Source: Saprospira sp. CCB-QB6
GTDB taxonomy: Bacteria > Bacteroidota > Bacteroidia > Chitinophagales > Saprospiraceae
Reading direction: 5' to 3'
Assembly (NCBI RefSeq): GCF_028464065.1
Contig: NZ_CP116808.1
Coordinates: 1,199,886 to 1,263,885 of the forward strand
DNA: 64,000 nt
Both the position numbers and the translations under genes were made by a program. The stretch's first letter is position 1, and each line of letters begins with the position of its first letter. Below the pieces are notes generated by a model. That model was not told where the DNA came from. It made no database searches and saw only the letters and a list, made by a program, of their open reading frames with translations. Positions 22,976 through 56,994 of this stretch are shown here, piece after piece.

Positions 22976-23117
22976 TGGGTTAAATACTTTAACTTAGGTA
23001 AAGGCGGGTGAATGCCTCCAAATTTAAAAAATTGTTTGGAAAAGGCGCAGCCAAAACGATTTTATAATTTAGATTTTCTTAATAACGCCTTTATTTATTG
23101 TTTTTTGCTGCTTTTGA

Positions 23118-23285
23118 GGTGGCGGAGCCGCCTGTGAGCGAAGCGAGCCATGGCCCAGCGCTGCGCAGCAGTGGCCGCAGGCCAGACCTAGCGGGCGCAG
23201 CCCGCGCAGGGCCGAGCAGACTTGCGAGCTGCGAAGCATAGCGGCGGCCGCCCCACTATAAAGGGCGGCCGCGGGCCCCTAAAAA
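23118..23285 (-). repeat. GC-rich interspersed element, variant A reverse, plus a GCGGCCGC hairpin module
   Basis: gccagacc..gggccgagcag..., then agcggcggccgcccc..gggcggccgcgggc. Confidence 0.8.
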
Positions 23286-23307
23286 TGGTTATTCTAGGCC
23301 TAAAAAA

Positions 23308-23342
23308 GGCCCAAAAGTGCGGAAACTTCTGGGCCTAAGTTT
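23308..23342 (-). terminator. Terminator or attenuator after the baseplate gene
   Basis: On the minus strand, the hairpin ggcccagaag..cttttgggcc is followed by TTTTTT, immediately 3' of the stop at 23362. Confidence 0.45.
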
Positions 23343-23361
23343 TTATAATTTTCTAGCTCGT

Positions 23362-26300: not shown

Positions 26301-27132
26301 TATTTAGGTGGTCCTGATTATGTTTAAAGAGTTTAACAAAAGCGATAAATAATGCTAAATCAGGGCGGTGATCATCTTTTTCTTTAAGTGATTTCTCTAG
26401 GTATTTTGGTGCTTCTTGTACGATATAGGAAAGCACACTATAAAAGGTCCGGAATTGCAGGCGGATCTTTTTGGTATAATCTTGAATTTTAAAATTGGCT
26501 CTAGGATCTTCTACTTCAATAGCGCGAGCAGAGAGCAACTTTTTAGAGGGGAACCAAATGCTATGAAAGTTCTCTTCAATTTCGTTGGGGCTATAAATCC
26601 CTGTTTGGTGAAACTCTAGATAGCGATCTTGTTCTAAGAGTTCGAGTAGGTTAGAAGAAAGCTGTTGTTTAATTGCGTTTTCCAATTCATTTTCCAGTTC
26701 ATCGGTATCGCCTGGTTGCAAGGTATTCATTTTGAGTGCATGCTCATACCAATCATTGAACTGTTTGGCCATATCGAAGACCTGGGTATACAGAGCCTTA
26801 AGCGCTTCTAGGCGACCAGCTGTGCGGGCTGCATTTTCTAGCTCAGTAATATATTTGGCGTGTTCCTGCTCAATTTTTTTAAGGTCGGTTGCAATAATTG
26901 AGGCCAAAAATACAGAAAGGTCATTGCGCAAAAAGCGCGACCAATCTCCTGCGGGGGAGTTAGTTTGGTCATAGAACTGGACCATTTCGGCATATTTGGC
27001 AGAAAAGGCAAGGAGGTCACTAGTAGAGCGTTCATCTACCTTAATATATTCTGGGATGAGGGCTTTGAGCAATCGTTGGCTCTGCGTTACGCCATTCCAG
27101 GATAGGCTAGATTTATTCTTTTTGGTACTCAT
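23362..27132 (-). CDS. Large baseplate protein (Afp11/gp6 baseplate-J-like, possibly fused with a gp7-like part)
   Basis: 1256 aa, directly downstream of the gp25-like and PAAR genes. Size and position match eCIS baseplate wedge proteins. No motif confirmed by eye. Confidence 0.7.
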   Translation of the reverse strand: MSTKKNKSSLSWNGVTQSQRLLKALIPEYIKVDERSTSDLLAFSAKYAEMVQFYDQTNSPAGDWSRFLRNDLSVFLASIIATDLKKIEQEHAKYITELENAARTAGRLEALKALYTQVFDMAKQFNDWYEHALKMNTLQPGDTDELENELENAIKQQLSSNLLELLEQDRYLEFHQTGIYSPNEIEENFHSIWFPSKKLLSARAIEVEDPRANFKIQDYTKKIRLQFRTFYSVLSYIVQEAPKYLEKSLKEKDDHRPDLALFIAFVKLFKHNQDHLNTLTEKHLDFYYYDVLKMQERGLQPDQVNVYFNLAKHIDSFFLPAGTLLDAGVDENGKPIRYKTDYGIELNQAKVDSVKTLFVSKNPKIGIGSSYRLITNMYAAPIANSRDGLGKRFINNEEEWPAFGEELLEKAADERQMVYAEVGWAMAAPILEMEEGHRSIKLRMRFDKSSMYTLNLLIKDISRNQGLSKEDAFSKIFKNSLKLLLSGEEGWIEAKSCELLPPENWNIPEFSLLATVSANAPAIVGYDAAVLGPDFDTTLPVMKVLHQNENVTYSYSFLKELSLERINIDVEVKGIKRLNLSNEYGQLEGSIPFQAFGPTPKLGSYLLIGKTELFKKELTNLKININWHNLPDNTKGLRGYYREYGLGVRNEDYRIKLSALREGEFFPEAKNNVKEYFLFEQDEDNVHGISSATCLDNIDLKLFDLEPQADLKQLDTYTSETQTGYFRMELTNPPSAFAHDEFPNLYADVAAYNADPKTKEKKKLPNQPFTPVIRNMSIDYTATAQVNIMSIGTVNSSGGVVEELFHIHPFGVMRNFSQGRPIKPTLLPAYDEDAYLFLGIKDFNPPATLSVYFELKENQDYFSMMKGRSSEAKQAEIVWSFLVNDEWKEFSQTQILNDTTNFFNNSGIITFDIPRDISENNTIFEKGKFWLRASLRGDASRMPTVLHLSTQAISATWAGEPEDEVEHLEEKLAANKIKNLVNPLVQIRSVQQPFGSFEGRPGENKKEFYTRSSERLRHKGRAVSAWDYERLVLDQFPDIFQVKCVTHIGHEEFVDKGQVVLVVVPRIKAAHQGRLPMVNNATLEAIRDYLTPLASPFVDIKLRNPIYERVKVAGGLRFQKGMNNGTFLKKLNKDIMDFVCPWMYGGQRELELGGTLAKDVLLSFIEKREYVDFVTKFSAVQVFPSGEGFDVGDTAIDNSSSPLLKATTPWSVLIPFEKNPLYLLDEVAFQSPAKAGLDNMMLDGDFVMTEERELDD

Positions 27133-27196
27133 GCTAAGGTGCGCTTAAGAGGATGGTTATTGTTGTTCTGATAGTGATAGTTGGGGCTATAGTGAT

Positions 27197-27613
27197 TTAG
27201 AGCTCGGTACCTTCTGCAAGGTAGAAAGGATAGACCATGTTATTACGAGCATTCACCCCCTTAATTTCATAAACTACATTTACATTTACACGGCCACGGA
27301 GTTGTTCGCTTTCATCTACATCGACAGAGATGAGGCGAATACGGGGCTCATGATACAGGATGGCTGTAGTAATGAGATCTTGAATCCGAATTCGGGTAGC
27401 ATTGTTAATGCTTTGAAAAGCTTGGCTATGGATATCGCAACCATAGCTAGGGTTCATGATTCGTTCGCCGGGGAGTGTAGATAATAAGATATTAAGAGAC
27501 TCCTTAATATCTTCTTCGTCTTGAGACATAACAATTCCGCGGGTAGAGTCGCTAAAACGTGGAGGGAAGCTCCAGCCTGAGCCTAAAAATGATTTTTGGA
27601 TATCGTCTGACAT
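27197..27613 (-). CDS. gp25-like baseplate wedge protein (GPW/gp25 family, Afp9-like)
   Basis: 138 aa with LSTLPGERIMNPSYGCDIH, matching the GPW_gp25 core motif. Confidence 0.85.
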   Translation of the reverse strand: MSDDIQKSFLGSGWSFPPRFSDSTRGIVMSQDEEDIKESLNILLSTLPGERIMNPSYGCDIHSQAFQSINNATRIRIQDLITTAILYHEPRIRLISVDVDESEQLRGRVNVNVVYEIKGVNARNNMVYPFYLAEGTEL

Positions 27614-27679
27614 GCTTAGAAATTTCTTATCGTCTAAAAAATTGGGATCAACTATTTATTTTAGGAGCAAAGCAGGCGC

Positions 27680-27808
27680 TGAATTGGCCTAGCGCTGTGG
27701 AAGGGTGGCCCTCAGGCCAGACCGAGGCGGCAAAGCCGCGGCCGAAGGGCCGAGCAGTCCTGCGAGCCCTGAAACCTAGCGCCGCAGCAAAGCTGCGGAG
27801 GCCCCTAA
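27680..27808 (-). repeat. GC-rich interspersed element, variant B reverse, inside the cluster
   Basis: cctagcgctgtgg..gccagaccgaggcggcaaagccgc..cctgcgagccc..gcagctttgctgcggaggcccc. Confidence 0.85.
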
Positions 27809-27812
27809 ACTA

Positions 27813-28103
27813 CTAACCAATAAGCACCGTAGGGGCTCCAGCTACCACTGCTCCGCCATGGCCACAAGAATCACCAATACGGGCAGCGGGTTTACCTTCA
27901 ATCATGACTGTTCCTGAGCCAGAAGCAATAGAGTCGCCAGCGCAGGCACAGACGGCAGAATCGCCAAGGCGGGCCGCGGGGATTCCAGTCACCATAACAG
28001 TTCCGGCACCGCTAACAATAGGTCCTCCAACATGAGGAGCTGGACCGGGGCAAACGGCGGGGCAAACGTGCATATCGCCAATTCGGGCAGAGGGCATTCC
28101 CAT
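27813..28103 (-). CDS. PAAR-domain spike tip protein
   Basis: 96 aa, Gly/Ala-rich, with two PAAR motifs (GIPAARLGD, GKPAARIGD). Confidence 0.85.
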   Translation of the reverse strand: MGMPSARIGDMHVCPAVCPGPAPHVGGPIVSGAGTVMVTGIPAARLGDSAVCACAGDSIASGSGTVMIEGKPAARIGDSCGHGGAVVAGAPTVLIG

Positions 28104-28124
28104 AGTATATTGATTTTAAACGTA

Positions 28125-29969
28125 CTAGTTAATTTTCACTAAACCACCTTTCACTTCACATAGTCCGCCGCCTTCTAGCTTAGCAGAGGCAGAACCTTTG
28201 AGTTCCATAGTGGTTGAGCCTTCTCCTTTTACAGCCAAGGCCTTAATAGAGAAATTGGCTGTGGCTTCCATTTTTGTATCGGAACCTGATTTGGTCTCGA
28301 TGTTAATGTCTGCCTCCATTTTAATATTTTTCTTGGCTTTAACGACAAAGTCTCCATCCGTTTCGAAGAGAATTCCATTTTTGTCCATCAACATTTTGTT
28401 GACATTCACGGGGTCTTCGATCAAGATCGTATCTTCATCGTCATTAAGCTCCACGATCATTTTATCCTCTGTAATAATCTTGACGATATTTTTGCCAGGA
28501 TCATCTTGAAGTTCGATACGTGTTTTTCCTTTATTGATAGAGATAGCTTTAAAGATATTGGGATCGGCAGGAATATGCGTTTCCTCGGTGGTAATACCTC
28601 TTCCGCTACTATACATAGAGCCCAAAATGACGGGATAAGTGGGATCAGCATTAAAAAAGCCAACAACCACTTCATCGCCTACTTCGGGATAAAATACAAA
28701 TCCGCAATCTTCGGTGGCATAATAATGCGCCATACGCGCCCAAACGCCTTCACCAGCTTGATCATCAATAATTGGGATATTGATTAAAACGCGAAACTCA
28801 CCATCTGGATCTGAGTCAATTTGCTTAACTACACCATGTTGTAGGCCATGAATAGCCGGTAAAGTTCCTCCTGCTGGGCGAGAGCTGGCCGTAAGGTTGG
28901 CCTCCATATAAGGTTGAGGATCCATACCTAAGCCCACCTCTGTTAACCATTGTCCTTTAAGGATAGTGTGGCGAACTTTGCTTACATAAGCATCGCCGAC
29001 AAAGCGGGTTCCAAAACCAAAAAGCTCAATTGTTTTACCCAATTCTGCTTTGGCCGAACCATAAAACTTCAGACTACCTCGAATTCGAGAGAGATGTCCT
29101 CTTTGATAAACGGAGTCTGCCCAAGACTGGATCACATCTTTAGTTACAGGAGGAGTGGTTTTGACCGTATTTTTGGGTTCAATAACGGCCCCCAACTTAG
29201 CAGAGTCCAAGTCTCCCTGTGCATTAACCTTTGGTTTAGCGCCATCAGCTGTTACAATAGCCAAATCTGTATGACTCCAACTGGTTGCACCAACCTCTTT
29301 ATATTGATAGGTTGAGTCAATATTCATATCCATCTCTACCAAGTCATTTCCATAAGAAATAACGAGTTCAGACTTCTCACTAACCGTAGGTTTCTTAATA
29401 CTAATTTCACCATCATCAATGATAGTCACCAAGCTATTCACATCAGCCCGAGAGTGTATAAAATCCCAATCAGTGCTCCAATATTGAATTAACTTCTTGT
29501 GCTTTCCTTTCGTTGCTTCCACATCCGCAGAAAGTCCAGCCTCACTCACAACTGCCGAAATAATATCCGAATCAAGCTGATCATAAAAAACCTTGTTTTT
29601 CCGGCCAACAGTTAGTTTAAGCGCTTTATCCTTACACTTGAGCACTAGAGCTGCTCCACTATAATTAGACTGCTTAATACCATGCTCTACTAAGATACCT
29701 TTATAAAGGGTTTGCTCTTTACCAGGACCATAACCTGCTTTTACCTCCACTTCTTTTCCCGGCTCAAACATGGCATCCTCAGAGGTCGGAAACTTCTGTT
29801 CCCGAGTATCTCCGTCCTTAAGCGTAATAAGAGCATAAGGAATCTTATTCAATTCCTTTACAATATCTACGCTCTCCACGACCATTGTTTTAGGCACCTC
29901 GGTTCCATCTATCAGTACAAGTACCGACAGATAGCCTTCGCCCATGCCTTTTACTGGAGAATCTGCCAT
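28125..29969 (-). CDS. VgrG / phage late-control-D-like spike protein (gp27-gp5-like, Afp8-like)
   Basis: 614 aa, with beta-rich repeats at the C-terminus and the expected position between the tube genes and PAAR. Confidence 0.75.
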   Translation of the reverse strand: MADSPVKGMGEGYLSVLVLIDGTEVPKTMVVESVDIVKELNKIPYALITLKDGDTREQKFPTSEDAMFEPGKEVEVKAGYGPGKEQTLYKGILVEHGIKQSNYSGAALVLKCKDKALKLTVGRKNKVFYDQLDSDIISAVVSEAGLSADVEATKGKHKKLIQYWSTDWDFIHSRADVNSLVTIIDDGEISIKKPTVSEKSELVISYGNDLVEMDMNIDSTYQYKEVGATSWSHTDLAIVTADGAKPKVNAQGDLDSAKLGAVIEPKNTVKTTPPVTKDVIQSWADSVYQRGHLSRIRGSLKFYGSAKAELGKTIELFGFGTRFVGDAYVSKVRHTILKGQWLTEVGLGMDPQPYMEANLTASSRPAGGTLPAIHGLQHGVVKQIDSDPDGEFRVLINIPIIDDQAGEGVWARMAHYYATEDCGFVFYPEVGDEVVVGFFNADPTYPVILGSMYSSGRGITTEETHIPADPNIFKAISINKGKTRIELQDDPGKNIVKIITEDKMIVELNDDEDTILIEDPVNVNKMLMDKNGILFETDGDFVVKAKKNIKMEADINIETKSGSDTKMEATANFSIKALAVKGEGSTTMELKGSASAKLEGGGLCEVKGGLVKIN

Positions 29970-30360: not shown

Positions 30361-31050
30361 TTAATGTGCTACTACCTTAGAGAATGCATAAGAAAGTTCA
30401 ATCTCCTGAACCAACAAATCCTCTGAAGTAGAATTCAATGAGCTCAAACTCATTTTAGACGGATACGCAAAATTAAATTCCATAGAAATCAAAATCTGCG
30501 GCTTTCCCGATTGTGTAAGGTTAGGATGCATAACATTAACCTGAACTCCCTTCAACTTAAGCTGCTTATTCCAAGAAGCCATAGCATCAAAACTCTCCTC
30601 ACACCACTGTGTCCAAGGGTCAGAACTTTTAATCACATCTGGCCGAACTAGACGCTTAAGCGTAATTGCAGAGTTTTTCATCTTATCAGGTAAGTCAATA
30701 GGATAATTGTATCCCCCCTCATTATAAGTCTTCTTCCCCTCTAGTCCAATCTCTAATCCACTCACCTCTATAAATGAGTTGTGAATATTGGTGTCGCCTG
30801 GCGTAGGCAAGCCATTCGCACCACCACCATCAAGTTTGTTAATCCCCTGTTTAAGCAATCCTCCGGCCATGCCCCCAACAAAAGTATCGACAGCTCCTTT
30901 GGCTACTCCTGCCAAAAAGCTATTTCCCTCATGCTTTTGATCATACATCTGCACATCAAAGTAAAAAGCGGGAATGGGCGAGGTTGTTTTCTCGTCCTCT
31001 TTCATTACTTCATCTAAAAAGCGCTCAAATGGGCTAATGGTATTATTCAT
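30361..31050 (-). CDS. Tube-family protein with insertion (Afp5/Pvc5-like)
   Basis: PAFYFDVQM...FIEVSGLEIGLE echoes the tube-protein core of the two neighbouring tube genes. Confidence 0.65.
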   Translation of the reverse strand: MNNTISPFERFLDEVMKEDEKTTSPIPAFYFDVQMYDQKHEGNSFLAGVAKGAVDTFVGGMAGGLLKQGINKLDGGGANGLPTPGDTNIHNSFIEVSGLEIGLEGKKTYNEGGYNYPIDLPDKMKNSAITLKRLVRPDVIKSSDPWTQWCEESFDAMASWNKQLKLKGVQVNVMHPNLTQSGKPQILISMEFNFAYPSKMSLSSLNSTSEDLLVQEIELSYAFSKVVAH

Positions 31051-31110
31051 ATCTTATTGGGATTATCTATAGCTATTGGTCTAAAAGTTAATTTGCTAAG
31101 CAGTTTCAAT

Positions 31111-31569
31111 TTAACCGCCTACCTGCGTTTCAAAATGACGGAAGGCAAATTCCATCTCCTCTACCGCTACTTCATTTTCAGATTCAGCATCAAAATTAGA
31201 GGGAATGTACTTTGTAATAAAAGCCTTTTCAAGCCGCCAAATAAACTGCGTCTCCATATTGTGATCCAAGAGATGAATTTCAATTGTCCGACGAGAAGTA
31301 TACTCCCGACTCACCGCTACCTGATCAAACAAACGACTCATTTGATCATCCTGAGAGAAAGAGCCTTTCTTAAGTGTAATCCGACTATATTGCAACATGC
31401 CAGGCATGCGCTCCTTTCCAAAAAAGGGAGAATTACCATCTCGGTACTCAATCACCCCAATCTCCGCTTCCAAACCATCTACAGTCTGAAAAGACATTTC
31501 AATTGGACCAATAAACACCCGAAAGCTAAAGCGCGTTAGGGGCCATGTCATTGTGGAATCTGAACTCAT
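31111..31569 (-). CDS. Phage-tail tube protein (T4 gp19 / Hcp-like fold), copy 2
   Basis: WPLTRFSFRV...FQTVDGLEAEIGVIEYRDGN, paralogous to the 31818-32273 product. Confidence 0.85.
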   Translation of the reverse strand: MSSDSTMTWPLTRFSFRVFIGPIEMSFQTVDGLEAEIGVIEYRDGNSPFFGKERMPGMLQYSRITLKKGSFSQDDQMSRLFDQVAVSREYTSRRTIEIHLLDHNMETQFIWRLEKAFITKYIPSNFDAESENEVAVEEMEFAFRHFETQVGG

Positions 31570-31757
31570 AACATCTATTTTTAAGAAAGCAGCTGCCCAA
31601 GTTAACTAGCTAAATACTAGCGTCAAGGCATGGATTTTTTGGGCCTATGCCCTGAAAATAGCGCTTAGCGATATCACCTTTAATAATCAGGCAGTTAAGA
31701 CTCGCTATAAGTTAAGCGCTTTAGGCTACTAAATTAAAGAAAAAATCTTAATAGCAC

Positions 31758-31792
31758 AAAAAAAACCTAGCAGGTTTTTACCTGCCAGGTTT
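31758..31792 (-). terminator. Hairpin plus T-run (attenuator) after the major tube gene
   Basis: On the minus strand, the hairpin cctggcagg..cctgctagg is followed by T8, directly 3' of the stop at 31818. Confidence 0.45.
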
Positions 31793-31817
31793 AATTTATT
31801 GCTAAGCTAAATTAAGC

Positions 31818-32273
31818 TTATGCAGTTTCCATAGTCCACTCTTCGCAGCAGAACTCAAGTTCTTCGATAGCGACTTCAGAGTCAGCTTCTGCGTCAAAAG
31901 GAGTAGGAGTAAACTTAGTAACGAAAGCGTTGAGAAGAGTCCAAGTGAAAACGATCTCATCAGCTTCATTCATCAAGTGAATGATTACAGTACGACGCTC
32001 AGTGTGCTGGTGGTCAACTGAAAGCTCTTTGTACCACTGATATAGGTAGTCATCGCTCTGGAAAGTACCCTTCTTCAAGGTGATGTTGCTATAAGACATC
32101 AAACCAGGACGCTTAGTCTTGTAGAAGTTGGTAGAGTTACCTGCGCGGTACTCCATTACAGAAATCTCAGTCTCAAGACCTTCGATTGTCTGGAAGCCCA
32201 AAGTGTTGGGGATATTGTCAATCTCGATAGAGAAGTAAAACTTAGGCAGTGGCCATTCTGTTGTTGCAGACAT
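31818..32273 (-). CDS. Phage-tail tube protein (T4 gp19-like, Afp1/Pvc1-like), major copy
   Basis: WPLPKFYFSIEI...FQTIEGLETEISVMEYRAGN. Codon usage is strongly biased, consistent with high expression. Confidence 0.9.
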   Translation of the reverse strand: MSATTEWPLPKFYFSIEIDNIPNTLGFQTIEGLETEISVMEYRAGNSTNFYKTKRPGLMSYSNITLKKGTFQSDDYLYQWYKELSVDHQHTERRTVIIHLMNEADEIVFTWTLLNAFVTKFTPTPFDAEADSEVAIEELEFCCEEWTMETA

Positions 32274-32385: not shown

Positions 32386-33879
32386 TTACTCAGCACCACC
32401 GGGCATTTTTTGCTGGAAGGTGATAACGATGAATTCAGCAGGACGAGAGATAGCTACTTTCACAGAAACTTTCATGTAACCATCTAGGATATCCTGAGGA
32501 GTCATAGTTGTACCCAAACCAACTTCTACTTGGAAAGCTTGGTCTTCAGTAGCACCTACCAAAGCACCTGCTTGCCACTGGCTACGCAAGAATGAACCAA
32601 TCATTGATTTAACTGCGATCCAAGTGTTAGCGTCATTGGGACGGAATACGAAAGGCTCACAAGCGAACTTCACAGACTGCTCCAACATGATCATAGTACG
32701 ACGTACGTTGATGTAGCGCCAGTCTTGGCTGTTACCGTCTAGAGTACGAGCACCCCATACCAAAGTACCTTTTCCAACGAAAGGACGGATAGCGTTGATT
32801 GCTTTACCACTCAAAGGCAAGTTCAAGTCTTCTTGCTCAGTAGCAGAAATGTTAACAGTAGGTCCAGTTACAGAAGAAACTGATACGTTAGCAGGAGCTT
32901 TGAATACACCTACAGTGCTGTCTACCAAAGAGTAAAGACCAGCGATAGCACCAGAAGGAGGCAATACGTTCAACATATCGCGCATTTGACCCAATACATC
33001 GTTGTATACAGGGCTTACAGCCTTCATGATGTTGTGTACAGCAGTTACGTTAGCATCAGCGTCAGCCATCTTAGCGATCTCAGCTTTGATCAACTCACCT
33101 TTTTCAGCTTTAACGAAACCAGCAGCTACGTTGTCATCAACTTCTTTGTTAAGCAATTCAACGAAACCTTCTAGGTTAGCAACGTTAGTGTAGTCAAACT
33201 CATCAGCTTGAACAACAGTAGCTTTCAACCAAGGGTAGTAAGCAGCACCAAAGTCTAGGAAGTTGTTGCCATAAGCCTCACGAGCGCGAGTTACAACATC
33301 ATCATCTAGCATGCTGCGAGATTCGTTACCGTTCCATACATCTAGGATAGCGAAGCGGCTGCGAGTATCAGCACCACAGTGCTTCAACATAGCTTGCTGT
33401 ACAGTAGCACAGTCACCTTCTTCCAAAGAGATAGCATCGGGAACTACAACCAAAGTAGGCTCTTGCTCCTTCAACAAAGCAGTGATACCACCGCCGTTCT
33501 CAGTACCAACTAGTGTTTTGGGAGAAACGTCATCGCCGTATCCACCAACAGAAACGATGTAGCAAGTTCCACCACCGTTAGCGTAGAACATTTGAAGGCT
33601 ACGGAACAACATGTAGTTACCGCCATCAACAGAAACGGTGTAGTTGTCACCTTCAGCATCAACGTTGAAAGTAGTTTTGGGAGCACCACCGAAGTAAGAT
33701 AGGTACTCAACCAAAGAAGTAATGCGCATTGGCGTGTTAGTCAAGTCGCGCTTACCAGCAGCGGCTTTCTCAGTGTGGCCAATGAAAGCAGGGATAGCAG
33801 TTCCTACTGCTACAACAGAATTCGAGAAGGCGCTTTTTTCTTCGATATAAACGCCTGGTGTTGCATACTGTTTTGCCAT
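32386..33879 (-). CDS. Contractile tail sheath protein
   Basis: N-terminus MAKQYATPGVYIEEKS is the phage/eCIS sheath signature. 497 aa with strongly biased codon usage (gct/ggt/gtt/aac/gaa). Confidence 0.9.
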   Translation of the reverse strand: MAKQYATPGVYIEEKSAFSNSVVAVGTAIPAFIGHTEKAAAGKRDLTNTPMRITSLVEYLSYFGGAPKTTFNVDAEGDNYTVSVDGGNYMLFRSLQMFYANGGGTCYIVSVGGYGDDVSPKTLVGTENGGGITALLKEQEPTLVVVPDAISLEEGDCATVQQAMLKHCGADTRSRFAILDVWNGNESRSMLDDDVVTRAREAYGNNFLDFGAAYYPWLKATVVQADEFDYTNVANLEGFVELLNKEVDDNVAAGFVKAEKGELIKAEIAKMADADANVTAVHNIMKAVSPVYNDVLGQMRDMLNVLPPSGAIAGLYSLVDSTVGVFKAPANVSVSSVTGPTVNISATEQEDLNLPLSGKAINAIRPFVGKGTLVWGARTLDGNSQDWRYINVRRTMIMLEQSVKFACEPFVFRPNDANTWIAVKSMIGSFLRSQWQAGALVGATEDQAFQVEVGLGTTMTPQDILDGYMKVSVKVAISRPAEFIVITFQQKMPGGAE

Positions 33880-35370: not shown

Positions 35371-35376
35371 ATTCTT

Positions 35377-35937
35377 CTAAATCTTGCGAATAGATGGAAT
35401 TTCTAGCTCTGGTTTCTTATGCTCAATCGGAATCGTTTTGAAACGATAAAGGACCGAAGGCAAATACTTGGCCCCTACCCCATTCCAAACATTAGATACA
35501 TCCCTAAAATCAGGAGAAACCATTTCGGCCACCAAACGCGTAAGGCTACCCGAAAGCGCTGGCGTATTTTGCTCATTAAAGACGCCTTGGCGACTCTGGA
35601 AAAAAGCAATCACCGAGCTCACAAACTTAAGGCCCTCCAAATAATTTTCATTGGTAAAATAGGCCGAAAACAACATATATATATTGACTTCAACCGGCGG
35701 AATAACCTTAGTAAAATTCCCTCGCTTGTTGGGCTGATAGGTAGCCGTCGTGCTCTTATTTCGCTCTGCCTCAATATTGATGATCGTCATCACGATCTTA
35801 TCGGCCTCTTGCACCGCCATCGATCCATCGGCATTTACTAGATGCGAAATGATGACCTTATCCTCTAAAATATTGTGTTTAGACTGCAAAAAGCGATTGA
35901 GCTCGCCCACCACAGCCGTGACAACTTTATCAATCAT
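35377..35937 (-). CDS. Tail terminator / cap protein, DUF4255-like (Afp16-like)
   Basis: 186 aa. It is the first gene upstream of the sheath module, as in many eCIS loci. The assignment rests on size and position only. Confidence 0.55.
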   Translation of the reverse strand: MIDKVVTAVVGELNRFLQSKHNILEDKVIISHLVNADGSMAVQEADKIVMTIINIEAERNKSTTATYQPNKRGNFTKVIPPVEVNIYMLFSAYFTNENYLEGLKFVSSVIAFFQSRQGVFNEQNTPALSGSLTRLVAEMVSPDFRDVSNVWNGVGAKYLPSVLYRFKTIPIEHKKPELEIPSIRKI

Positions 35938-35942
35938 AATCC

Positions 35943-36200
35943 TTATTCTTCTTCCTCCTCAGGCTCTGGCTGAGTCAGTGTTTTGATAGAAAGCGCAATA
36001 AAACGCATAATATAAATGCCCAAAAAAGAGGTAAAATACCCTATCAAGTACATCCAGAATACCCAGTTGCGCTCAATTTCACTCATATTTACCACCTCTC
36101 TGGTATAACCAAAGAACCAAAGGAACACCACCGCCATGGGCAGCGAGACGATCAGGGCCACAATCAGCCAAATGAACTCTCTTGCGATTATTTTAAACAT
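35943..36200 (-). CDS. Small membrane protein (2 TM helices, poly-Glu C-terminus)
   Basis: 85 aa ending 6 bp before the cap gene, with hydrophobic segments LIVALIVSLPMAVVFLWFF and MYLIGYFTSFLGIYIM. Confidence 0.5.
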   Translation of the reverse strand: MFKIIAREFIWLIVALIVSLPMAVVFLWFFGYTREVVNMSEIERNWVFWMYLIGYFTSFLGIYIMRFIALSIKTLTQPEPEEEEE

Positions 36201-36252
36201 GCTCTATTTTTGTTAGCCTCGATATCGCACAAGGTTGTTTTTGATTTTTATG

Positions 36253-36405
36253 TTTTGGGGCTGCCCCTCCTTTCAGTCGGGTCGGGCTGTGCCGTGGCTC
36301 GCTAATCGCTCGGCCCTGCGCCAGCAAGCTGGCTGGGTCTGCGGCTTCGCCGCACCACTTTCCATCCCTCAGCCTGCGGCGGCTTTGCCGCCTGCTCACC
36401 GCAAA
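36253..36405 (+). repeat. GC-rich interspersed element, variant A
   Basis: TTTTGGGGCTGCCCC..GGGTCGGGCTGTG..CTCGCT..CGGCCC. ORF 36193-36507 is an artefact. Confidence 0.85.
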
Positions 36406-36410
36406 AGGAC

Positions 36411-38588
36411 CTAAGGCAATCGTTTTTGCTGGCGCTTGAGCAACATACTGGCTACCCAAGTCAGAATCCCCCCCAAAATGGTTCCTACCAAAAAGGTAGC
36501 TACCCAATTATTAAACAAGCCCAAATTATTGCCGATGAACAAAACGATTGTGGCAAAAAGGACCAAGTAGAAAATTCGAAAAGCACCACTATAAAACATT
36601 ACATCTCGCACCTTCCAATCTAATAAAGAGAAGGCAAAACCCACAGCCATAAAAAATAACATGGCCAAAAGGGTCGAGAACACCACCCCATTTGCCTTTT
36701 TGATTTGATAAGCTATGGTGTAATGAATTTTATTGCTCTTTGCTACTTTATAGCGTTCAATTTTCTCCAACTTGGTATTCCAAACCTCTCTGGCCGCAAA
36801 CTTTTCTTCCAAGGTGCGCCACAATTCGGTATACCCATGATCATAACTAAGGGCCCAAACAGCAACTCCCCCCATTTTCTTCTCTAGGGCCAAGTCCATC
36901 TTCAAGCCCAAACTCGTCGAGTTATCAAAGTAAATCTCTTTGAGCGGATTGCCCAAAGTATCTACCAAAACGCCAATCATGCTATTGTGCATTTTGTCAT
37001 AACGCACTTTTAATCGGTTGGCCCGAGCCAGATTTCGAATTTCTGAATAAGCCATATAGCCCTCAAAACTTACCCCTGCATCACCTTCCAAGGCCCAAAC
37101 TGCCCCATGATAAGGCAGGGCAAGGACAAGACTAGTACTATGTTTGGCTCCAATTGCTTGAATGTAGCGATCAATAGTTTCCTCCAGACTTTCTTCCAAG
37201 CTATCCGATTCCGAAATAATCCCCTCTAAACCAGAGAAAAGATCAAATTCATGAATCTGAATAGTATCCTGTTCAGGTTCGAACAAGAACATATTGATTG
37301 GATTTCGGGCCGCATAATATTTAGCCAACTCAGCCTGGCAAGCAGTTGCTTTTAATGCTCTGCGGAGATACGGATTATCACGAAGCTCTTTGGTCGCTCG
37401 GATAATGCCCAAAACAGTCCCCAAATCATAGGTATTATACTCCAAATTTGTAATCCCCGCTCTGAGGATGTACATGTTTAAGGTATCCAGCAACTGTCGT
37501 TGATAACCTTCTGTATGTAGCAGTTCAATATTCTTAATTGCAGAAGAAGTCCGAAGCACAGAGTCTAAGCTAATCTTCTCTGAGTAACTCATATAGCTAC
37601 GCTTCCATTTTGCTTCGGGCTTGAGCAAAGGCGTCAAAGGTCCTTTGCTTACGCCTGTTGGTCGCAAATGAAAATTGTAGGCAGAAACAATAAAAATATC
37701 TACCCAATTTTGCAAAAAGCCTAGATCATAGACCTTTTCAGGATCGCGTAAAGGCAAGCTCATCGCAATAGTAAAGTTGGGATTTTCTTCGCGTAGTGCA
37801 AAAGAGAGCTCACGAACAAAATCCTCAAAATCTGCTTTATACTCGATAGGTAATTCTTCAAAGTTAATTTCTACTCCATCTCCCCCAGCATAATTGAGCA
37901 CAGCAATCAAGCTATCAATAAGGTTGCGTTGAACTACCTTTGCTGAAGTAAAAAAGATTTCACTACGCTCCCCTCTATGGCAAGAAAGCGTAAGCATAGC
38001 TTTACAACTATCTTTATGCGCTGTTTTTACAAAATCCCCATTCTTAAACTGATCAATGGCTTCAAAATCTTCATAGCCACCAGTAAAGGGATTCAATTTA
38101 TAGGCATAAAAAGAGGCATGGGTCAATAAACCAAAATTATAGTTGTGGTATTTTTCGCCGGCCCAAGAGGGATGCCAACCCCAAACCACCAAGTTTTGCT
38201 TACTATTGATTTCGGTAGACTGAACATAGAGTGCTGGCTCTTGCTCATACATCTCCTCTGCGCCCAATGGTTTTTCATAACGCGAATAGCGTCCCTTGGC
38301 CATTACTTTAAGGTCCGTTTCTGTCGGCATGCCCCACCAATGGCGAGCTAGCGTTCTAAAACGAGTTTGGCTTAGTTCTAAGACCACCTTATTTTCAATA
38401 ATAGTATCCTTCTCCCGAAGCTTTTCGAGTCGTTGCAAACGCAACTCTGAAGAATCCTCTGCCGTAGGGGTTAGGATTTGGGTGCCATTCAATTCTTTAC
38501 CGTCTAGCTGTGCCAAAAGACCAGAAGTTGCCCAGGCAAAACAAAAGAGTAAGAGTAAAATGGTCCGTATATGTGTCCACATCAACAT
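36411..38588 (-). CDS. Membrane-anchored protein with a GH18 (chitinase-like) domain carrying a degenerate catalytic motif, copy 1
   Basis: Signal peptide, then GGDGVEINFEEL in place of DGxDxDWE, then three C-terminal TM helices. 725 aa. Confidence 0.8.
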   Translation of the reverse strand: MLMWTHIRTILLLLFCFAWATSGLLAQLDGKELNGTQILTPTAEDSSELRLQRLEKLREKDTIIENKVVLELSQTRFRTLARHWWGMPTETDLKVMAKGRYSRYEKPLGAEEMYEQEPALYVQSTEINSKQNLVVWGWHPSWAGEKYHNYNFGLLTHASFYAYKLNPFTGGYEDFEAIDQFKNGDFVKTAHKDSCKAMLTLSCHRGERSEIFFTSAKVVQRNLIDSLIAVLNYAGGDGVEINFEELPIEYKADFEDFVRELSFALREENPNFTIAMSLPLRDPEKVYDLGFLQNWVDIFIVSAYNFHLRPTGVSKGPLTPLLKPEAKWKRSYMSYSEKISLDSVLRTSSAIKNIELLHTEGYQRQLLDTLNMYILRAGITNLEYNTYDLGTVLGIIRATKELRDNPYLRRALKATACQAELAKYYAARNPINMFLFEPEQDTIQIHEFDLFSGLEGIISESDSLEESLEETIDRYIQAIGAKHSTSLVLALPYHGAVWALEGDAGVSFEGYMAYSEIRNLARANRLKVRYDKMHNSMIGVLVDTLGNPLKEIYFDNSTSLGLKMDLALEKKMGGVAVWALSYDHGYTELWRTLEEKFAAREVWNTKLEKIERYKVAKSNKIHYTIAYQIKKANGVVFSTLLAMLFFMAVGFAFSLLDWKVRDVMFYSGAFRIFYLVLFATIVLFIGNNLGLFNNWVATFLVGTILGGILTWVASMLLKRQQKRLP

Positions 38589-38630
38589 AAGTCTTGGGAA
38601 TAAAATCGTCTGAATAAGAAATTGGGAGAA

Positions 38631-40517
38631 TTAAGGGGCTTTGGCTTGTTGCTTATCTACTAAATAGATGATACCATAAGTAAAGAATCCCCCAATAACC
38701 AGCCCCAACAATAAAATAGATGCTCCACCACGGAAAAGTCCATAGTAAGACCCCACCATAAGCAAGAGAGCCGAAAACCAGCCCAGATAAAGCATTCTAA
38801 AACGTCCATTATTAAAGAGGGTTCTGCGCACCTGCTTATTAAAGAGGGCCATGCAAAAACCAGCAGAAGCAAAAATGGCCCAGAAAAGGAGTACTGCTAA
38901 AAGCGTAGCCCCCCAACTTCTAGCCGCCTTACTTGCTGCCCCTAATTTTTCATATGCTTCTAATTGAGGCATCTCTATGGTTGTAAACTCCGAAGAAAGC
39001 GTATTCCATACATTATAATAGCCCAAATCATACCCCAAAGGCCAAACACCTACACCAGCCAAGCCCATATCATTGATAAATTGATACTTGAGCTGTAAAG
39101 TCCGCACATCATCATAATAAAGCTCCGTCCGTACGATATCATCAATTTGTAAGGCTCCTCCTACTTTCTTGAACAAAGTATCTTCTTTGGACCAAACATA
39201 AGAGTAGTAGTTCGAGTCAATTCCCACGGCCTTACTATCACGCATTACAAAATCATTTTGGATTTTGCTATAGGGTACATATCCCTCTAAATCAAAGCCC
39301 CGATTACTACTCTTCCAAAGTGTTCCATAATTGGGCAAAGCCAAAATGAGACGATTCGCTGCATCTCTACCAATAGATGCAATATAATGCTCTACCGATG
39401 AGCGAATATCTTCTTCGCCTGAGGCTGCCGTAAAATTGAGTGGAGCAACAGGCTTCTTAATGATTTCTCCCGTCTTGGGATCATTGTGGTAATCAACCGC
39501 CTTAATAATAAAGAAATCGACATGTTCTTTTAATTTGCTCAAATTAAATACGCCCTCAATATCCACAGCTGGCACACTCATGCAAACTGCTAAATCTGGA
39601 GAGACCGCCCGCAAGGTGAATGAAAGCTGTCGTACAAATTTGAGGAATTCTATTTGAGCAAGAGCAGGTACATTTTCAAAGTTAATTTCTACTCCATCGG
39701 CCTTAGAGGTATCCATCAAATAGACAATATTATCTATGAGGTTTTGCCGCTGCTTTGCATTTTCAGGCGCCAAGAAAAAAGCATTGTTATCATAACTATG
39801 ACTCGTAATACTCAACAAAACTTTACAGTCTTTGGCATGAGCCGTAGGCACAATCCCATTATCAGGATCATCCCCACCCAAAAAGTCATGTATCACTGTC
39901 GAATCTAAAGCTTCGCCTGTATAAGGATCAATATCATAACCATAATAAGCAATAGCCGAAAGCAACCCATAATCATAGGTCTTATATGCATTGCCATTAA
40001 AATGCGCATGCCAACCAAAGACAGTAACAAATTGGCTAGCTGTCCCTTTTACCAGTTTGGGCACCCGAAATTCCGAGCTATCAATTGCACTAATAGAATC
40101 TCTTTGACGCTCAAACTTCAATTTAGCTTCCAAATCAGCATCACTAGGCGTCATCCACCACTGCCCCAAAAGATCAATAAAACGCTTTTTGTTATTGGGG
40201 TTTTCTATTTCCCGCTTTGCATTTTCGTCCTCTATCAACTCTTCTAAAGTAGGATCGTTCTCTGGGATAAAATCTTCCTTCTTAAAAGAAGGCAATTGCT
40301 TATACTCATCAGATTTGGTCCGATAAGCATTCTTAACGGTAGTTTTTCGACTCTCAAACTCATCCCGTAAGGCCCTAGTCGCTTTTTTCTCTAGAGCATT
40401 TCCACCACCTTTTTTGGCAGTTTGGATGGCAATACGGCTCTGTCCCCAGCTATTTGTTGCCAATAATAAGCAACTTAACAAGAGTAGTTTGGCCGTTGTA
40501 TTGATGAAAATTCGCAT
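38631..40517 (-). CDS. Membrane-anchored GH18-like protein, copy 2 (paralog)
   Basis: 628 aa with ADGVEINFENV and the same C-terminal TM architecture. Confidence 0.8.
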   Translation of the reverse strand: MRIFINTTAKLLLLSCLLLATNSWGQSRIAIQTAKKGGGNALEKKATRALRDEFESRKTTVKNAYRTKSDEYKQLPSFKKEDFIPENDPTLEELIEDENAKREIENPNNKKRFIDLLGQWWMTPSDADLEAKLKFERQRDSISAIDSSEFRVPKLVKGTASQFVTVFGWHAHFNGNAYKTYDYGLLSAIAYYGYDIDPYTGEALDSTVIHDFLGGDDPDNGIVPTAHAKDCKVLLSITSHSYDNNAFFLAPENAKQRQNLIDNIVYLMDTSKADGVEINFENVPALAQIEFLKFVRQLSFTLRAVSPDLAVCMSVPAVDIEGVFNLSKLKEHVDFFIIKAVDYHNDPKTGEIIKKPVAPLNFTAASGEEDIRSSVEHYIASIGRDAANRLILALPNYGTLWKSSNRGFDLEGYVPYSKIQNDFVMRDSKAVGIDSNYYSYVWSKEDTLFKKVGGALQIDDIVRTELYYDDVRTLQLKYQFINDMGLAGVGVWPLGYDLGYYNVWNTLSSEFTTIEMPQLEAYEKLGAASKAARSWGATLLAVLLFWAIFASAGFCMALFNKQVRRTLFNNGRFRMLYLGWFSALLLMVGSYYGLFRGGASILLLGLVIGGFFTYGIIYLVDKQQAKAP

Positions 40518-40554
40518 TTCTTTCTGCTTTTCAAATTCTCAATGGGGTGTCTGA

Positions 40555-41595
40555 CTAGCCTTCTTCGGCCTTGAATACTGGAATCTTCTTTTGCAAAAAG
40601 ATCTCTTGGACTCGCTCCCGCTTGATAATCTCCAAGATTTCGGCTCGCTTGAGTTGAAATTTGGCCACCTTAATATAAACCCGCACTCCTGTCACCGTAT
40701 TGAGGTTCCTAAAACACATTTTCAACTGCTTGTAGGTACCCGCCTTATAAGCAGGGATTACCCCAAATGGAGGAGGATTCAAGCCCTGCGTCCCCACATA
40801 ATTATCATTGGCCCTAGGATCCTTAAAATCATAGCGAAGGTTTCGAGCCAAAGAATTATTTGCCATCGGCAAAGTTTCTGTCAAACCTAAACCATACGCC
40901 ATAAGCGGTTCCGTCACCTCTGCCGCAATCCAACTAAGCTTAGGGTTGCTCTTGAGATTTTGATACTCTTGATGGGCCTTATCCCCAATGCCAATCCAAT
41001 AGACAGCATATTGATAATCCCCCTCCAATAAAGCTTCCGTAATGCAACTATCGGCCAAAGACTGATAGTCTAGGGCCGGCTGTAGATCCAACTGAATTTC
41101 TGTAATATCTGGATAGGGAATCGTATCGGGATAAGCCGTGCGCATGGTATCTATTGAGGTCGTTACCATCACATCATCCAATACCAAAGAGTCTTGAAAA
41201 GACATGGCCGGAAACTTATAAATCTGCATACGAAAAGCACGACCAAACAACCCCCGATTTTTCATCACAAAATTATGCACTCCATCCTTAGACGCAATAA
41301 ATGACTCCCGCTCTAAACTACGCACCTTCTTCATGCGCATCTTAAACTGAGTGCCTGGCAATTCCACAATGAGACGGCCCAATTTACGGGCGCCAATGGT
41401 TTGCATATCAATAACAACCTGCTCGCCTTGCTTGAGGTCATAGGAAAGTAGCTTCTTTTTCCAAGCGCCTAATTCTACCAACTCATCAAAGAGAACAATG
41501 CGTTCATCATAAGATTGTTGGGCCTGCATGGGGCTATACAGTAGGCATAACAATAGGGCAAACCACTGCCAATGCAGCTTTTTGGGTATTCTCAT
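40555..41595 (-). CDS. Secreted hypothetical protein
   Basis: Start trimmed to MRIPKKLHWQWFALLLCLLYSPMQAQQ (signal peptide). First gene of the co-oriented block. Confidence 0.65.
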   Translation of the reverse strand: MRIPKKLHWQWFALLLCLLYSPMQAQQSYDERIVLFDELVELGAWKKKLLSYDLKQGEQVVIDMQTIGARKLGRLIVELPGTQFKMRMKKVRSLERESFIASKDGVHNFVMKNRGLFGRAFRMQIYKFPAMSFQDSLVLDDVMVTTSIDTMRTAYPDTIPYPDITEIQLDLQPALDYQSLADSCITEALLEGDYQYAVYWIGIGDKAHQEYQNLKSNPKLSWIAAEVTEPLMAYGLGLTETLPMANNSLARNLRYDFKDPRANDNYVGTQGLNPPPFGVIPAYKAGTYKQLKMCFRNLNTVTGVRVYIKVAKFQLKRAEILEIIKRERVQEIFLQKKIPVFKAEEG

Positions 41596-41790
41596 ATATC
41601 CGTAGCATCTAAGGTTCTGGGGCAAAATTGGCAATTAAAAGTATAGTGTGTGGGCCAAAATCTGCTAGTACAAGCCCAAATTAAAGCTTTTTTCAAAATT
41701 AACCTTAAAATTCTAGGGCCTTTTCTAAACAAAACCTTAAAGGTCCATCAATCGTCTAGCTGTCAAAGTTTTAACAGAGATTAGTTTTTT

Positions 41791-41923
41791 GTGAACTGTT
41801 TTTTTGGGGCCTCCGCTGCGGCTTCGCCTTGCGGCGCTACGTTCCGCAGCTCGCTCTTCGCTCGGCCCTGCGGCGCAAGCGCCTTGGTCTGGCCTGACGG
41901 CCACTGCTGCACATCGCTAGGCC
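41791..41923 (+). repeat. GC-rich interspersed element, variant B
   Basis: TTTTTGGGGCCTCCGC..CGCAGCTCGCT..CACATCGCTAGGCC. Confidence 0.85.
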
Positions 41924-41964
41924 AAATGGATACCCTCCGCTTCAAATATCCTTTCTAATCTTTT

Positions 41965-42258
41965 GGATGGCATATATCTGCGCAAAAAATAGTGGTCCAA
42001 GCTTTCAGATGGTATGTATCTGCGCAAAAAATAGTGGTCCAAGCTTTCGGATGGCATGTATCTGCACAAAAAATAGCCGTCTAAGCTTTTGGACGGCATA
42101 TATCTGTGCAAAAAATAGCTGTCTAGGCTTTTAGACGACACATATCTCCACAAAAAATAACCGTCTAGGCTTTTGGACGACACATATCTCCACAAAAAAT
42201 AACCGTCTAGGCTTTTGGACGATACATATCTCCACAAAAAATAGCGGTCAACTCTTGG
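41965..42258. repeat. Tandem direct repeat, 42-bp unit x 7
   Basis: Units ggatggcatatatctgcgcaaaaaatagtggtccaagctttc diverge progressively. Copies 5 and 6 are identical. No spacers, so it is not a CRISPR array. Confidence 0.9.
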
Positions 42259-47610: not shown

Positions 47611-47664
47611 CTTCGCTCCAATTTAATTTTGGTCCTCAATATATTTCATTTCAGGCTAAGAGTG

Positions 47665-56991: not shown

Positions 56992-56994
56992 TTT

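What the first reader, a model, noticed from the sequence alone, without database searches (positions are those of the whole stretch)
35943..41634. Two tandem membrane-anchored GH18-like proteins with degenerate catalytic motifs, co-oriented upstream of the injection system
Genes 36411-38588 and 38631-40517 are paralogs. Each has a signal peptide, a chitinase-like GH18 region where DGxDxDWE is replaced by DGVEINFE(E/N), and three C-terminal TM helices. A 2-TM small protein and a secreted protein complete an unbroken co-directional run into the cap gene. Catalytically compromised GH18 domains usually bind glycans. Tethered to the membrane beside a contractile machine, they could be an envelope anchor or conduit (a functional analogue of a T6SS membrane complex) or a self-protection factor. 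Nothing equivalent is part of canonical Afp/PVC loci.
Basis: partly seen in the sequence, partly recalled or inferred. Interest (0 to 1): 0.7.

Follow-up and report, generated by a model that had tools for sequence, protein, structure and literature searches.

The report
Membrane-anchored GH18 pair of a contractile injection system
Two neighbouring genes encode inner-membrane proteins with a cell-wall-facing chitinase-like domain; they always travel with a phage-tail-like injection machine in Bacteroidota and match a protein type (SalCis20) first described in 2026, so they are a duplicated example of a recently recognised accessory, not something unprecedented.

Summary
Genes 40517-38631 (628 aa) and 38588-36411 (725 aa) are full-length paralogs. 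Each has a signal peptide, a GH18 barrel carrying DGVEINFE, and three C-terminal TM helices. They sit in a co-directional run: secreted protein, GH18a, GH18b, 2-TM protein, cap, cap-adaptor-like gene, sheath, tubes, spike.

The window is Saprospira grandis-like, so the machine is the Saprospiraceae T6SSiv-type system ("rhapidosome").

The GH18+3TM architecture is a large Bacteroidota family. In 48 of 60 loci it lies beside injection-system core genes, usually as the first gene before the cap. Soluble GH18 relatives never do (0 of 18). Its presence follows sheath relatedness.

The motif is not simply degenerate. The catalytic Glu is kept in about 94% of members. Exactly one acidic residue sits at motif position 4 or 6. 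Glu is lost almost only in the upstream copy of duplicated pairs.

A published counterpart exists: SalCis20 of the Salmonella salamae system (Nat Commun 2026). It has a Sec signal, a SleL-like periplasmic domain and three TM helices, and was proposed to remodel peptidoglycan and anchor the machine to the inner membrane.

Verdict: a duplicated member of that kind. It is also a candidate part of the still unidentified Saprospiraceae trans-envelope complex. Moderate interest.

The parts
40555..41595 (-). sec359: secreted protein (signal peptide ending MQA|QQ) with no family assignment; first gene of the run
   Evidence: The ORF is. It has no Pfam, NCBIfam or PHROG hit. Homologs lie directly upstream of the GH18 genes in Saprospira, Aureispira and other Saprospiraceae loci, with weaker hits in a few Flavobacteriaceae and Lewinella loci. 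The start at M14 was checked.
38631..40517 (-). GH18a (628 aa): signal peptide, disordered/helical N-region, GH18 barrel (about residues 160-510), three TM helices, C-terminal Pro
39675..39698 (-). GH18a catalytic-strand motif DGVEINFE (D274..E281). Glu281 is the general acid position and Asn279 replaces the usual Asp.
38640..38912 (-). GH18a three-helix membrane domain with a K/R-rich cytoplasmic loop (NKQVRRTLFNNGRFR) and tail
36411..38588 (-). GH18b (725 aa): paralog with the same architecture plus an insertion of about 110-140 aa in the barrel
37857..37880 (-). GH18b motif DGVEINFE (D237..E244)
37194..37616 (-). GH18b-specific insertion (about residues 325-465) between the sixth strand region and the following helix. 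Predicted helical at low confidence. Shared with its 727-aa ortholog P0030.
36420..36692 (-). GH18b three-helix membrane domain
35943..36200 (-). tm85: conserved 2-TM hairpin protein (N-in/C-in by charge) with an acidic tail; a partner gene of GH18+3TM
   Evidence: Co-occurrence with GH18+3TM: both present 50, GH only 11, tm85 only 2, neither 14.
35377..35937 (-). Cap protein (Pvc16_N; equivalent to Alg16A/Cis16a)
   Evidence: AlgoCIS paper PMC8894135.
33936..35063 (-). 375-aa protein in the position of the cap adaptor (Alg16B/SalCis16b); assigned by synteny only
   Evidence: No PDB sequence hit.
32386..33879 (-). Sheath
   Evidence: The closest solved sheaths are SalCis2 9r9h, AlgoCIS 7adz and tCIS 7b5h.
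30361..32273 (-). Three tube-family (gp19) genes
22184..29969 (-). Spike (VgrG-like), gp25, a 1256-aa gp6-like baseplate/cage protein, and a 263-aa protein with a weak tail-fibre hit (candidate Cis13-like)

Best explanation
GH18a and GH18b are a duplicated pair of Cis20-type accessory proteins of the Saprospira T6SSiv-like contractile injection system.

Shown or computed: each is exported by Sec and loses its signal peptide, which ends before Gln as is typical in Bacteroidota. Each stays in the inner membrane through a three-helix C-terminal domain. Its basic loop and tail face the cytoplasm, and its GH18/SleL-like barrel faces the peptidoglycan. The gene family is co-inherited with the machine, as the first gene of the cap-sheath-tube operon, together with a small 2-TM partner.

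Inferred: the periplasmic barrel binds peptidoglycan glycan strands at the site where the baseplate docks, and in at least one copy per system probably cleaves them. Cleavage would be GlcNAc-dependent, using the retained Glu. This would open or hold a passage for the tube. The membrane domain, with tm85, would give the baseplate (cage protein and fibre-like protein) a docking point on the inner membrane.

SalCis20 is a homodimer, so the two Saprospiraceae paralogs most likely form a heterodimer in which the copies have begun to divide the catalytic and structural roles.
For: Architecture.

Association: 48 of 60 loci with a GH18+3TM gene carry injection-system core genes within 10 kb, against 0 of 18 for soluble GH18 relatives (Fisher p 4e-10). 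The order GH18TM-tm85-cap-p375-sheath-tube-spike-gp25-cage is conserved from Saprospiraceae to Flavobacteriaceae, Cytophagales, Chitinophagales and Bacteroidales.

In an independent sheath-seeded metagenome sample, 24 of 39 loci with enough upstream sequence have the gene. The 15 without it mostly form a separate sheath cluster.

Active site: Glu is kept in 84 of 89 members. Motif positions 4 and 6 covary as (D/E,N) or (N/T/C/H,D). Four of the five Glu losses are in the upstream copy of duplicated pairs whose downstream copy keeps it.

The membrane domain and the last residue (Pro) are conserved across the family.

Published counterpart: SalCis20 has the same architecture, a solved homodimer and membrane localisation. 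Its authors proposed MltE-like wall remodelling and anchoring through SalCis13/SalCis11 (PMC13266070).

The Aureispira T6SSiv has an inner-membrane anchor and a trans-envelope complex of unknown composition and no TssJLM (preprint 10.1101/2024.01.29.577165). Aureispira MAG loci carry the same sec359-GH18a-GH18b-tm85-cap run.
Against: No activity, localisation, interaction or expression data exist for these proteins.

Direct homology to SalCis20 could not be tested. PDB 9R9A did not appear in any sequence or fold search here.

The loci whose sheath is closest to SalCis2 showed no GH18+3TM gene within 10 kb of the sheath.

Both window copies carry Asn in place of the second catalytic Asp. GH18a has also lost the Tyr of the YD motif (KAVDYH), and GH18b has YN. 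Both could therefore be inactive.

Twelve of 60 GH18+3TM loci show no core gene nearby. One of them lies between 2-oxoglutarate dehydrogenase and a BrkB gene.

The function of SalCis20 itself is only proposed. Deleting it did not prevent particle assembly.
Confidence: 0.6

Rival explanations
1. Both proteins are non-catalytic structural parts (pseudoenzyme lectins). Together with tm85 and the secreted 359-aa protein they build the inner-membrane and periplasmic parts of the C6 trans-envelope complex seen in Saprospiraceae T6SSiv. The barrel would only grip peptidoglycan or another glycan.
For: The motif departs from DxxDxDxE. The YD-motif Tyr or Asp is also changed in the window copies. In some lineages one copy loses the Glu altogether. 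The duplication and sec359 are restricted to Saprospiraceae, the group with the elaborate trans-envelope complex.
Against: Glu is kept in 94% of members over sequence identities down to about 25%. It is never lost in both copies of a pair, which argues that Glu-dependent chemistry is needed. N-x-E is a working catalytic pair in the related family GH85 (own knowledge, not tested here). The single-copy family outside Saprospiraceae often has the SleL/YdhD-type DG(V/I)NIDFE motif.
Confidence: 0.22
2. The pair tm85 plus GH18 is a lysis module, with tm85 acting like a holin and GH18 like an endolysin. It would release assembled particles from the producer, as extracellular injection systems are thought to leave by lysis.
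For: A small 2-TM N-in/C-in protein with a charged tail lies next to a wall-hydrolase-like gene. The two genes co-occur strongly. Saprospira rhapidosomes were historically seen in lysates (mentioned in the ixotrophy preprint).
Against: GH18 has its own Sec signal and a permanent three-helix anchor, so it needs no holin. tm85 has no holin family hit in Pfam or PHROGs. The Aureispira systems fire from living cells while bound to the inner membrane. No particle release was detected for SalCIS. The genes sit at the head of the structural operon.
Confidence: 0.1
3. The genes are ordinary wall- or chitin-metabolism enzymes, or an effector/immunity pair, that merely lie beside the injection system.
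For: Twelve of 60 GH18+3TM loci show no core gene within 10 kb. Source databases name the family 'spore germination protein YaaH' or 'glycosyl hydrolase family 18'.
Against: Synteny is conserved across several orders and is congruent with sheath relatedness. Several of the 12 exceptions are truncated contigs, or have other system genes next door: eCIS_core, the STAND NTPase or p263. A Sec signal plus a membrane anchor is incompatible with loading into the tube. No eCIS_core/DUF4157 domain is present.
Confidence: 0.05

Closest known systems
SalCis20 (SalCis19 in the preprint) of the Salmonella enterica subsp. salamae contractile injection system; PDB 9R9A; PMC13266070
   Same: Both have a Sec signal peptide, a large periplasmic hydrolase domain of the SleL (GH18) fold and three C-terminal TM helices. 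Both are encoded inside a clade Ib injection-system operon. The proposed roles are the same: wall remodelling and inner-membrane association. The authors state that putative homologues exist in clade Ib genomes.
   Different: Here there are two tandem paralogs instead of one, so a heterodimer is likely rather than a homodimer. The proteins are shorter (628 and 725 aa, against a periplasmic domain reaching residue 775). One copy has a private helical insertion. The motif is E-x-N-x-E. They are accompanied by a conserved 2-TM gene and a secreted protein. The host is a Saprospiraceae predator whose system has a trans-envelope complex. Sequence or structural homology to 9R9A itself could not be checked here.
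SleL / YaaH / YdhD spore-cortex GH18 enzymes of Bacillus (4s3j, 4s3k, 3cz8)
   Same: These are among the closest solved folds and sequence relatives. They act on peptidoglycan rather than chitin. They have the motif type DG-x-x-I-D-F-E, lacking the middle Asp, which many single-copy family members share.
   Different: The Bacillus enzymes are soluble, have LysM domains and no membrane anchor, and function in germination. The window proteins have Asn where these have Asp before the Glu.
Wall-remodelling helpers of canonical T6SS (MltE recruited by TssM in E. coli; TagX in Acinetobacter) and the TssJLM membrane complex
   Same: The proposed job is the same: make or hold a passage through peptidoglycan and tie the baseplate to the envelope.
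   Different: The folds and families are unrelated. No TssJ/L/M homologs are present in the window cluster or in Aureispira. The resemblance is functional only.
CisA of Streptomyces coelicolor (membrane protein needed for firing of a cytoplasmic injection system; 10.1101/2024.06.25.600559)
   Same: Both are dedicated membrane accessories encoded with a non-canonical injection system.
   Different: The architecture is different, with no GH18 domain to my knowledge. This comparison was not examined here beyond the title and abstract.

Membership tests
Cis20-type membrane hydrolase of clade Ib injection systems (SalCis20) | [quoted passage not shown] | tested here: met
   Both proteins have a hydrophobic N-terminus followed by a small residue and Gln. 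The family consensus is 'AQ'.
Cis20-type membrane hydrolase of clade Ib injection systems (SalCis20) | Large periplasmic domain with a SleL-like hydrolase fold | tested here: met
Cis20-type membrane hydrolase of clade Ib injection systems (SalCis20) | Three C-terminal transmembrane helices, C-terminus in the cytoplasm | tested here: met
   Hydropathy, positive-inside charge distribution and model helices 536-558, 571-591 and 599-626.
Cis20-type membrane hydrolase of clade Ib injection systems (SalCis20) | Encoded within a clade Ib contractile injection system operon | tested here: met
   The genes lie directly upstream of the cap, sheath and tube genes. The sheath is closest to SalCIS, AlgoCIS and tCIS sheaths. 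Synteny is conserved in 48 of 60 loci.
Cis20-type membrane hydrolase of clade Ib injection systems (SalCis20) | Detectable sequence or structural homology to SalCis20 (9R9A), including its membrane domain | not testable with these tools
   9R9A never appeared in PDB sequence searches or fold searches. The SalCis20 sequence could not be obtained.
Cis20-type membrane hydrolase of clade Ib injection systems (SalCis20) | Dimer in the membrane; envelope localisation | not testable with these tools
   This requires multimer modelling or experiment.
Glycoside hydrolase family 18 | (beta/alpha)8 barrel matching the family profile | tested here: met
Glycoside hydrolase family 18 | Full DxxDxDxE catalytic motif | tested here: not met
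   The motif is D-G-V-E-I-N-F-E. The first Asp and the Glu are kept, the middle Asp is Glu and the third Asp is Asn. The same deviation occurs in 41 of 70 family members.
Glycoside hydrolase family 18 | Catalytic acid Glu present | tested here: met
   E281 and E244 are present. Glu is kept in 84 of 89 family members.
Glycoside hydrolase family 18 | Hydrolytic activity on GlcNAc-containing glycans | not testable with these tools
   An enzyme assay is needed.
Holin-endolysin lysis cassette | Small membrane protein belonging to a holin family | tested here: not met
   tm85 has no Pfam, PHROG or meaningful NCBIfam hit. Only its size and 2-TM topology resemble a holin.
T6SS membrane complex TssJLM | Homologs of TssJ, TssL or TssM | tested here: not met
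   Proteins of the cluster gave no such Pfam hits. Only a sub-threshold TssQ-like hit (17.6 bits against a cut-off of 65) was seen on the 479-aa outer-membrane protein.

The most novel reading that the evidence does not exclude
GH18a and GH18b form a heterodimer. Together with tm85 and the secreted 359-aa protein, and possibly the conserved 479-aa outer-membrane barrel and its 482-aa neighbour, they would be the so far unidentified C6 trans-envelope complex and inner-membrane anchor of the Saprospiraceae T6SSiv. That would make a wall-hydrolase fold the scaffold of a secretion-system envelope complex, evolutionarily unrelated to TssJLM. One copy would keep wall-cutting activity and the other would be turned into a structural subunit.
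Probability: 0.25. Interest if true: 0.75.

Novelty: new member of a known kind. Interest (0 to 1): 0.45.

Why it matters
How non-canonical injection systems (T6SSiv and relatives) are fixed to the cell envelope and pass the cell wall is an open question. TssJLM is absent from these systems. The trans-envelope complex imaged in Aureispira has no assigned proteins.

This locus, and the survey made here, give named candidates: two GH18+3TM paralogs, a 2-TM partner and a secreted protein. They lie at the head of the structural operon in exactly the bacteria that show the complex.

The survey also adds three points:
- The SalCis20-type protein is a widespread, vertically co-inherited accessory of a large Bacteroidota sub-lineage.
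- It almost always comes with a small 2-TM partner.
- Its catalytic Glu is under selection, which argues for real chemistry on the wall and not mere tethering.

All of this is computational. The function of the family is still only proposed, even for SalCis20.

Tried and rejected
1. Direct comparison with SalCis20 failed. PDB 9R9A was not returned by any of these searches:
- phmmer with either paralog;
- the family profile;
- the membrane tail alone, as a single sequence or as a profile;
- Foldseek;

A homolog search seeded with a SalCis2-like sheath returned only Bacteroidales, Dysgonomonas and metagenome proteins, not Salmonella. The Bacteroides ovatus locus fetched from that search was only a sheath+tube remnant.

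2. Whether AlgoCIS has the gene stayed open. A homolog search with a Cytophagales-type member listed no Algoriphagus among the top 120 hits, and the AlgoCIS paper mentions no such gene. This is suggestive of absence, not proof.

The sheath was used instead.

4. The afdb50 fold library was unavailable.

5. The supplementary tables of the ixotrophy and SalCIS papers were not held. It therefore remains unknown whether those authors list the Aureispira or Saprospira genes.

6. The sigma-70 promoter scan is uninformative for Bacteroidota, and its hit count was at the shuffle level.

7. Rejected readings:
- Effector: the proteins have a Sec signal and a membrane anchor, and no eCIS_core domain.
- Immunity or self-protection: the genes are not placed near effectors.
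- Chance adjacency: excluded by the synteny statistics.
Full report
**What is there**

On the minus strand the window carries an uninterrupted co-directional series of genes:
- a 359-aa secreted protein (41634/41595-40555);
- a 628-aa protein (40517-38631);
- a 725-aa protein (38588-36411);
- an 85-aa two-TM protein (36200-35943);
- a Pvc16_N cap (35937-35377);
- a 375-aa protein (35063-33936);
- the sheath (33879-32386);
- three gp19-type tube genes;
- a VgrG-like spike;
- gp25;
- a 1256-aa gp6-like baseplate protein;
- a 263-aa protein.

Both large proteins exceed the Pfam GH18 gathering score. They are paralogs over the whole length, including the membrane region. The motif DGVEINFE occurs in both, at the place where chitinases have DGxDxDWE and YdhD has GGVTIDFE.

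AlphaFold2 models were built with 70-79 homologs. They give a barrel at pLDDT above 95 with the usual alpha+beta insertion. They also show a poorly ordered N-terminal region with helices and three C-terminal TM helices. Fold searches return GH18 enzymes, with SleL among them.

Charge distribution places the barrel in the periplasm and the TM1-TM2 loop and the tail in the cytoplasm. GH18b carries an extra segment of about 110-140 residues that is predicted helical at low confidence. Only its 727-aa ortholog shares it.

**Where it comes from**

The best genomic match is Saprospira grandis DSM 2844, at 96% protein identity with the same gene order (L001). Saprospira and Aureispira are the ixotrophic predators whose "rhapidosomes" are T6SSiv-type systems. 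In Aureispira these systems are bound to the inner membrane. They are connected to a C6 trans-envelope complex and extracellular antennae whose proteins are not identified, and TssJLM is absent (preprint 10.1101/2024.01.29.577165). Aureispira MAG loci show the same sec359-GH18a-GH18b-tm85-cap run.

**Is the neighbourhood meaningful?**

A scan of one genome per species found at least 580 loci encoding relatives, and the best 79 were analysed. The GH18 relatives fall into two classes:
- Proteins of about 560-740 aa (a few near 1000 aa) with two to three predicted C-terminal TM helices and a terminal Pro. They lie next to injection-system core genes in 48 of 60 loci.
- Soluble proteins of about 400-440 aa (Tenacibaculum, Lacinutrix, Aquimarina). 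They never do (0 of 18; Fisher p 4e-10).

The order GH18TM, tm85, cap, p375, sheath, tube, tube, spike, gp25, cage protein recurs in Saprospiraceae, Lewinella, Cytophagales, Chitinophagales, Flavobacteriaceae and Bacteroidales MAGs.

Of the 12 exceptions:
- four are contigs that end right after the gene;
- three have another system-related gene next door (p263, eCIS_core or the STAND NTPase);
- five show nothing within 10 kb, and in one of these the gene lies between 2-oxoglutarate dehydrogenase and BrkB genes.

An independent sample was seeded with the sheath and drawn from metagenomes. It gave 24 loci with the gene and 15 without, among the loci that had at least 5.5 kb upstream.

Clustering the sheaths places most gene-less loci in a separate group. 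That group is the one closest to Bacteroidales systems and to the solved SalCis2 sheath. The gene is therefore inherited with a sub-lineage of the machine.

tm85 is nearly always its companion (both present 50, GH only 11, tm85 only 2, neither 14). tm85 is a conserved N-in/C-in hairpin.

A profile search of 1.84 billion representatives gave 2137 proteins at E up to 1e-30. About 119 of the best 150 match through the membrane tail. The family is therefore large.

**Is the active site dead?**

The motif departs from DxxDxDxE, but in a patterned way. In 70 aligned members, positions 4/6/8 are (D or E, N, E) in 41, (N/T/C/H/A, D, E) in 17 and (D, D, E) in one.

In 89 membrane-class proteins from the loci, Glu is kept in 84. 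Four of the five losses are in the upstream copy of duplicated pairs whose downstream copy keeps Glu.

Such conservation at about 25% overall identity argues that the Glu is used. The N-x-E pair is the catalytic arrangement of the related family GH85. This comes from my own knowledge and is a lead, not a test.

In the window copies further catalytic-site residues are changed: the YD motif reads VD in GH18a and YN in GH18b. Their own activity is therefore uncertain. The pattern fits a pair that is dividing labour.

**What is known**

The Salmonella salamae system paper (PMC13266070) describes SalCis20. It has a Sec signal, a periplasmic SleL-like domain and three TM helices. The paper reports a 2.73 A homodimer (9R9A) and signal-dependent envelope localisation.

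The authors propose wall remodelling analogous to MltE, and transient anchoring of the baseplate through the fibre-like SalCis13 and the cage protein SalCis11. They state that putative homologues occur in clade Ib genomes.

The window proteins meet every architectural and contextual criterion of that type. Direct homology could not be tested because 9R9A was not retrievable here.

The paper calls SleL an amidase. To my knowledge SleL is a GH18 N-acetylglucosaminidase, which fits the reading given here.

No other paper found links GH18 proteins to these systems.

**Mechanism and rivals**

- Best supported (0.6): a system-dedicated inner-membrane module. Its periplasmic barrel engages the wall at the firing site, and in at least one copy probably cuts it. 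Its membrane domain, with tm85, offers the baseplate a docking point.
- A purely structural, non-catalytic role in the trans-envelope complex is the main rival (0.22). It overlaps with the most novel reading.
- A lysis module (0.1) is disfavoured by the protein's own Sec signal and permanent anchor, and by the anchored firing seen in Aureispira.
- Chance adjacency or an effector role (0.05) is disfavoured by the synteny and the topology.

**Transcription**

A strong terminator follows the upstream SprB-like gene, and none of comparable strength lies inside the run. The gaps before tm85 and before p375 hold copies of a dispersed GC-rich repeat. A 42-bp tandem array lies upstream of the first gene. 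Co-transcription is plausible but unproven.

**Verdict**

The pair is a duplicated member of the recently described Cis20-type accessory. The added value is the family-wide synteny, the tm85 partnership, the selected catalytic Glu and the link to the unassigned Saprospiraceae envelope complex.

Noticed in passing
window 41960-42249: A tandem array of 6.9 copies of a 42-bp unit (88% matches). It lies in the 0.9-kb intergenic region between the terminator of the SprB-like gene and the first gene of the run. It may be a regulatory element; its function is unknown.
   Followed up: partly
window 36201-36410 and 35064-35376; other copies near 1950-2014, 3986-4149, 6665-6809, 12846-12966, 16827-16870, 21990-22045, 41832-41926, 42334-42427, 47476-47911, 52021-52143, 56993-57233, 58564-58621, 62403-62496: A dispersed GC-rich intergenic repeat (REP/MITE-like, about 60-120 bp, 84-100% identity between copies). 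It fills the only two sizeable gaps inside the operon. It could affect transcript processing or termination.
   Followed up: partly
window 13856-20365 (minus strand); also L021, L023, L027, L036, L038, L084, L093, L101 and others: An nSTAND1-WD40 NTPase (1119 aa), a 479-aa outer-membrane beta-barrel protein (with a sub-threshold TssQ-like N-terminus) and a 482-aa SBBP-like protein recur beside GH18TM-bearing injection clusters in other Bacteroidota. They are candidates for a regulator and an outer-membrane component.
   Followed up: partly
L008, L013, L015, L083 (upstream GH18 paralog): In duplicated pairs the catalytic Glu is replaced (by Ser or Pro) only in the upstream copy, while the downstream copy keeps it. 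In L008 the downstream copy even has the canonical DGLDLDFE motif.
   Followed up: yes
last residue of GH18a/GH18b and of almost all family members (alignments A1, A2, A5): The C-terminal residue is a nearly invariant Pro preceded by a basic stretch (...KAP, ...RLP, ...ELP). No explanation is known; it may be a recognition or docking signal on the cytoplasmic side.
   Followed up: no
window 42525-45200 (minus strand): An 891-aa protein with SprB repeats and a type IX secretion C-terminal sorting domain lies directly upstream. It is also adjacent in L001, and a SprB-like hit occurs in L014. Surface adhesins of this kind cooperate with the injection system in ixotrophy according to the Aureispira study.
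   Followed up: no
window 8693-11792 (minus strand): Three tandem paralogs of DUF6976 (339, 327 and 327 aa).
   Followed up: no
L160 (Bacteroides ovatus GCA_918279245.1, 10001-11982): A sheath and a tube gene stand alone next to Rnf genes with no other injection-system genes. This looks like a remnant or a split cluster.
   Followed up: no
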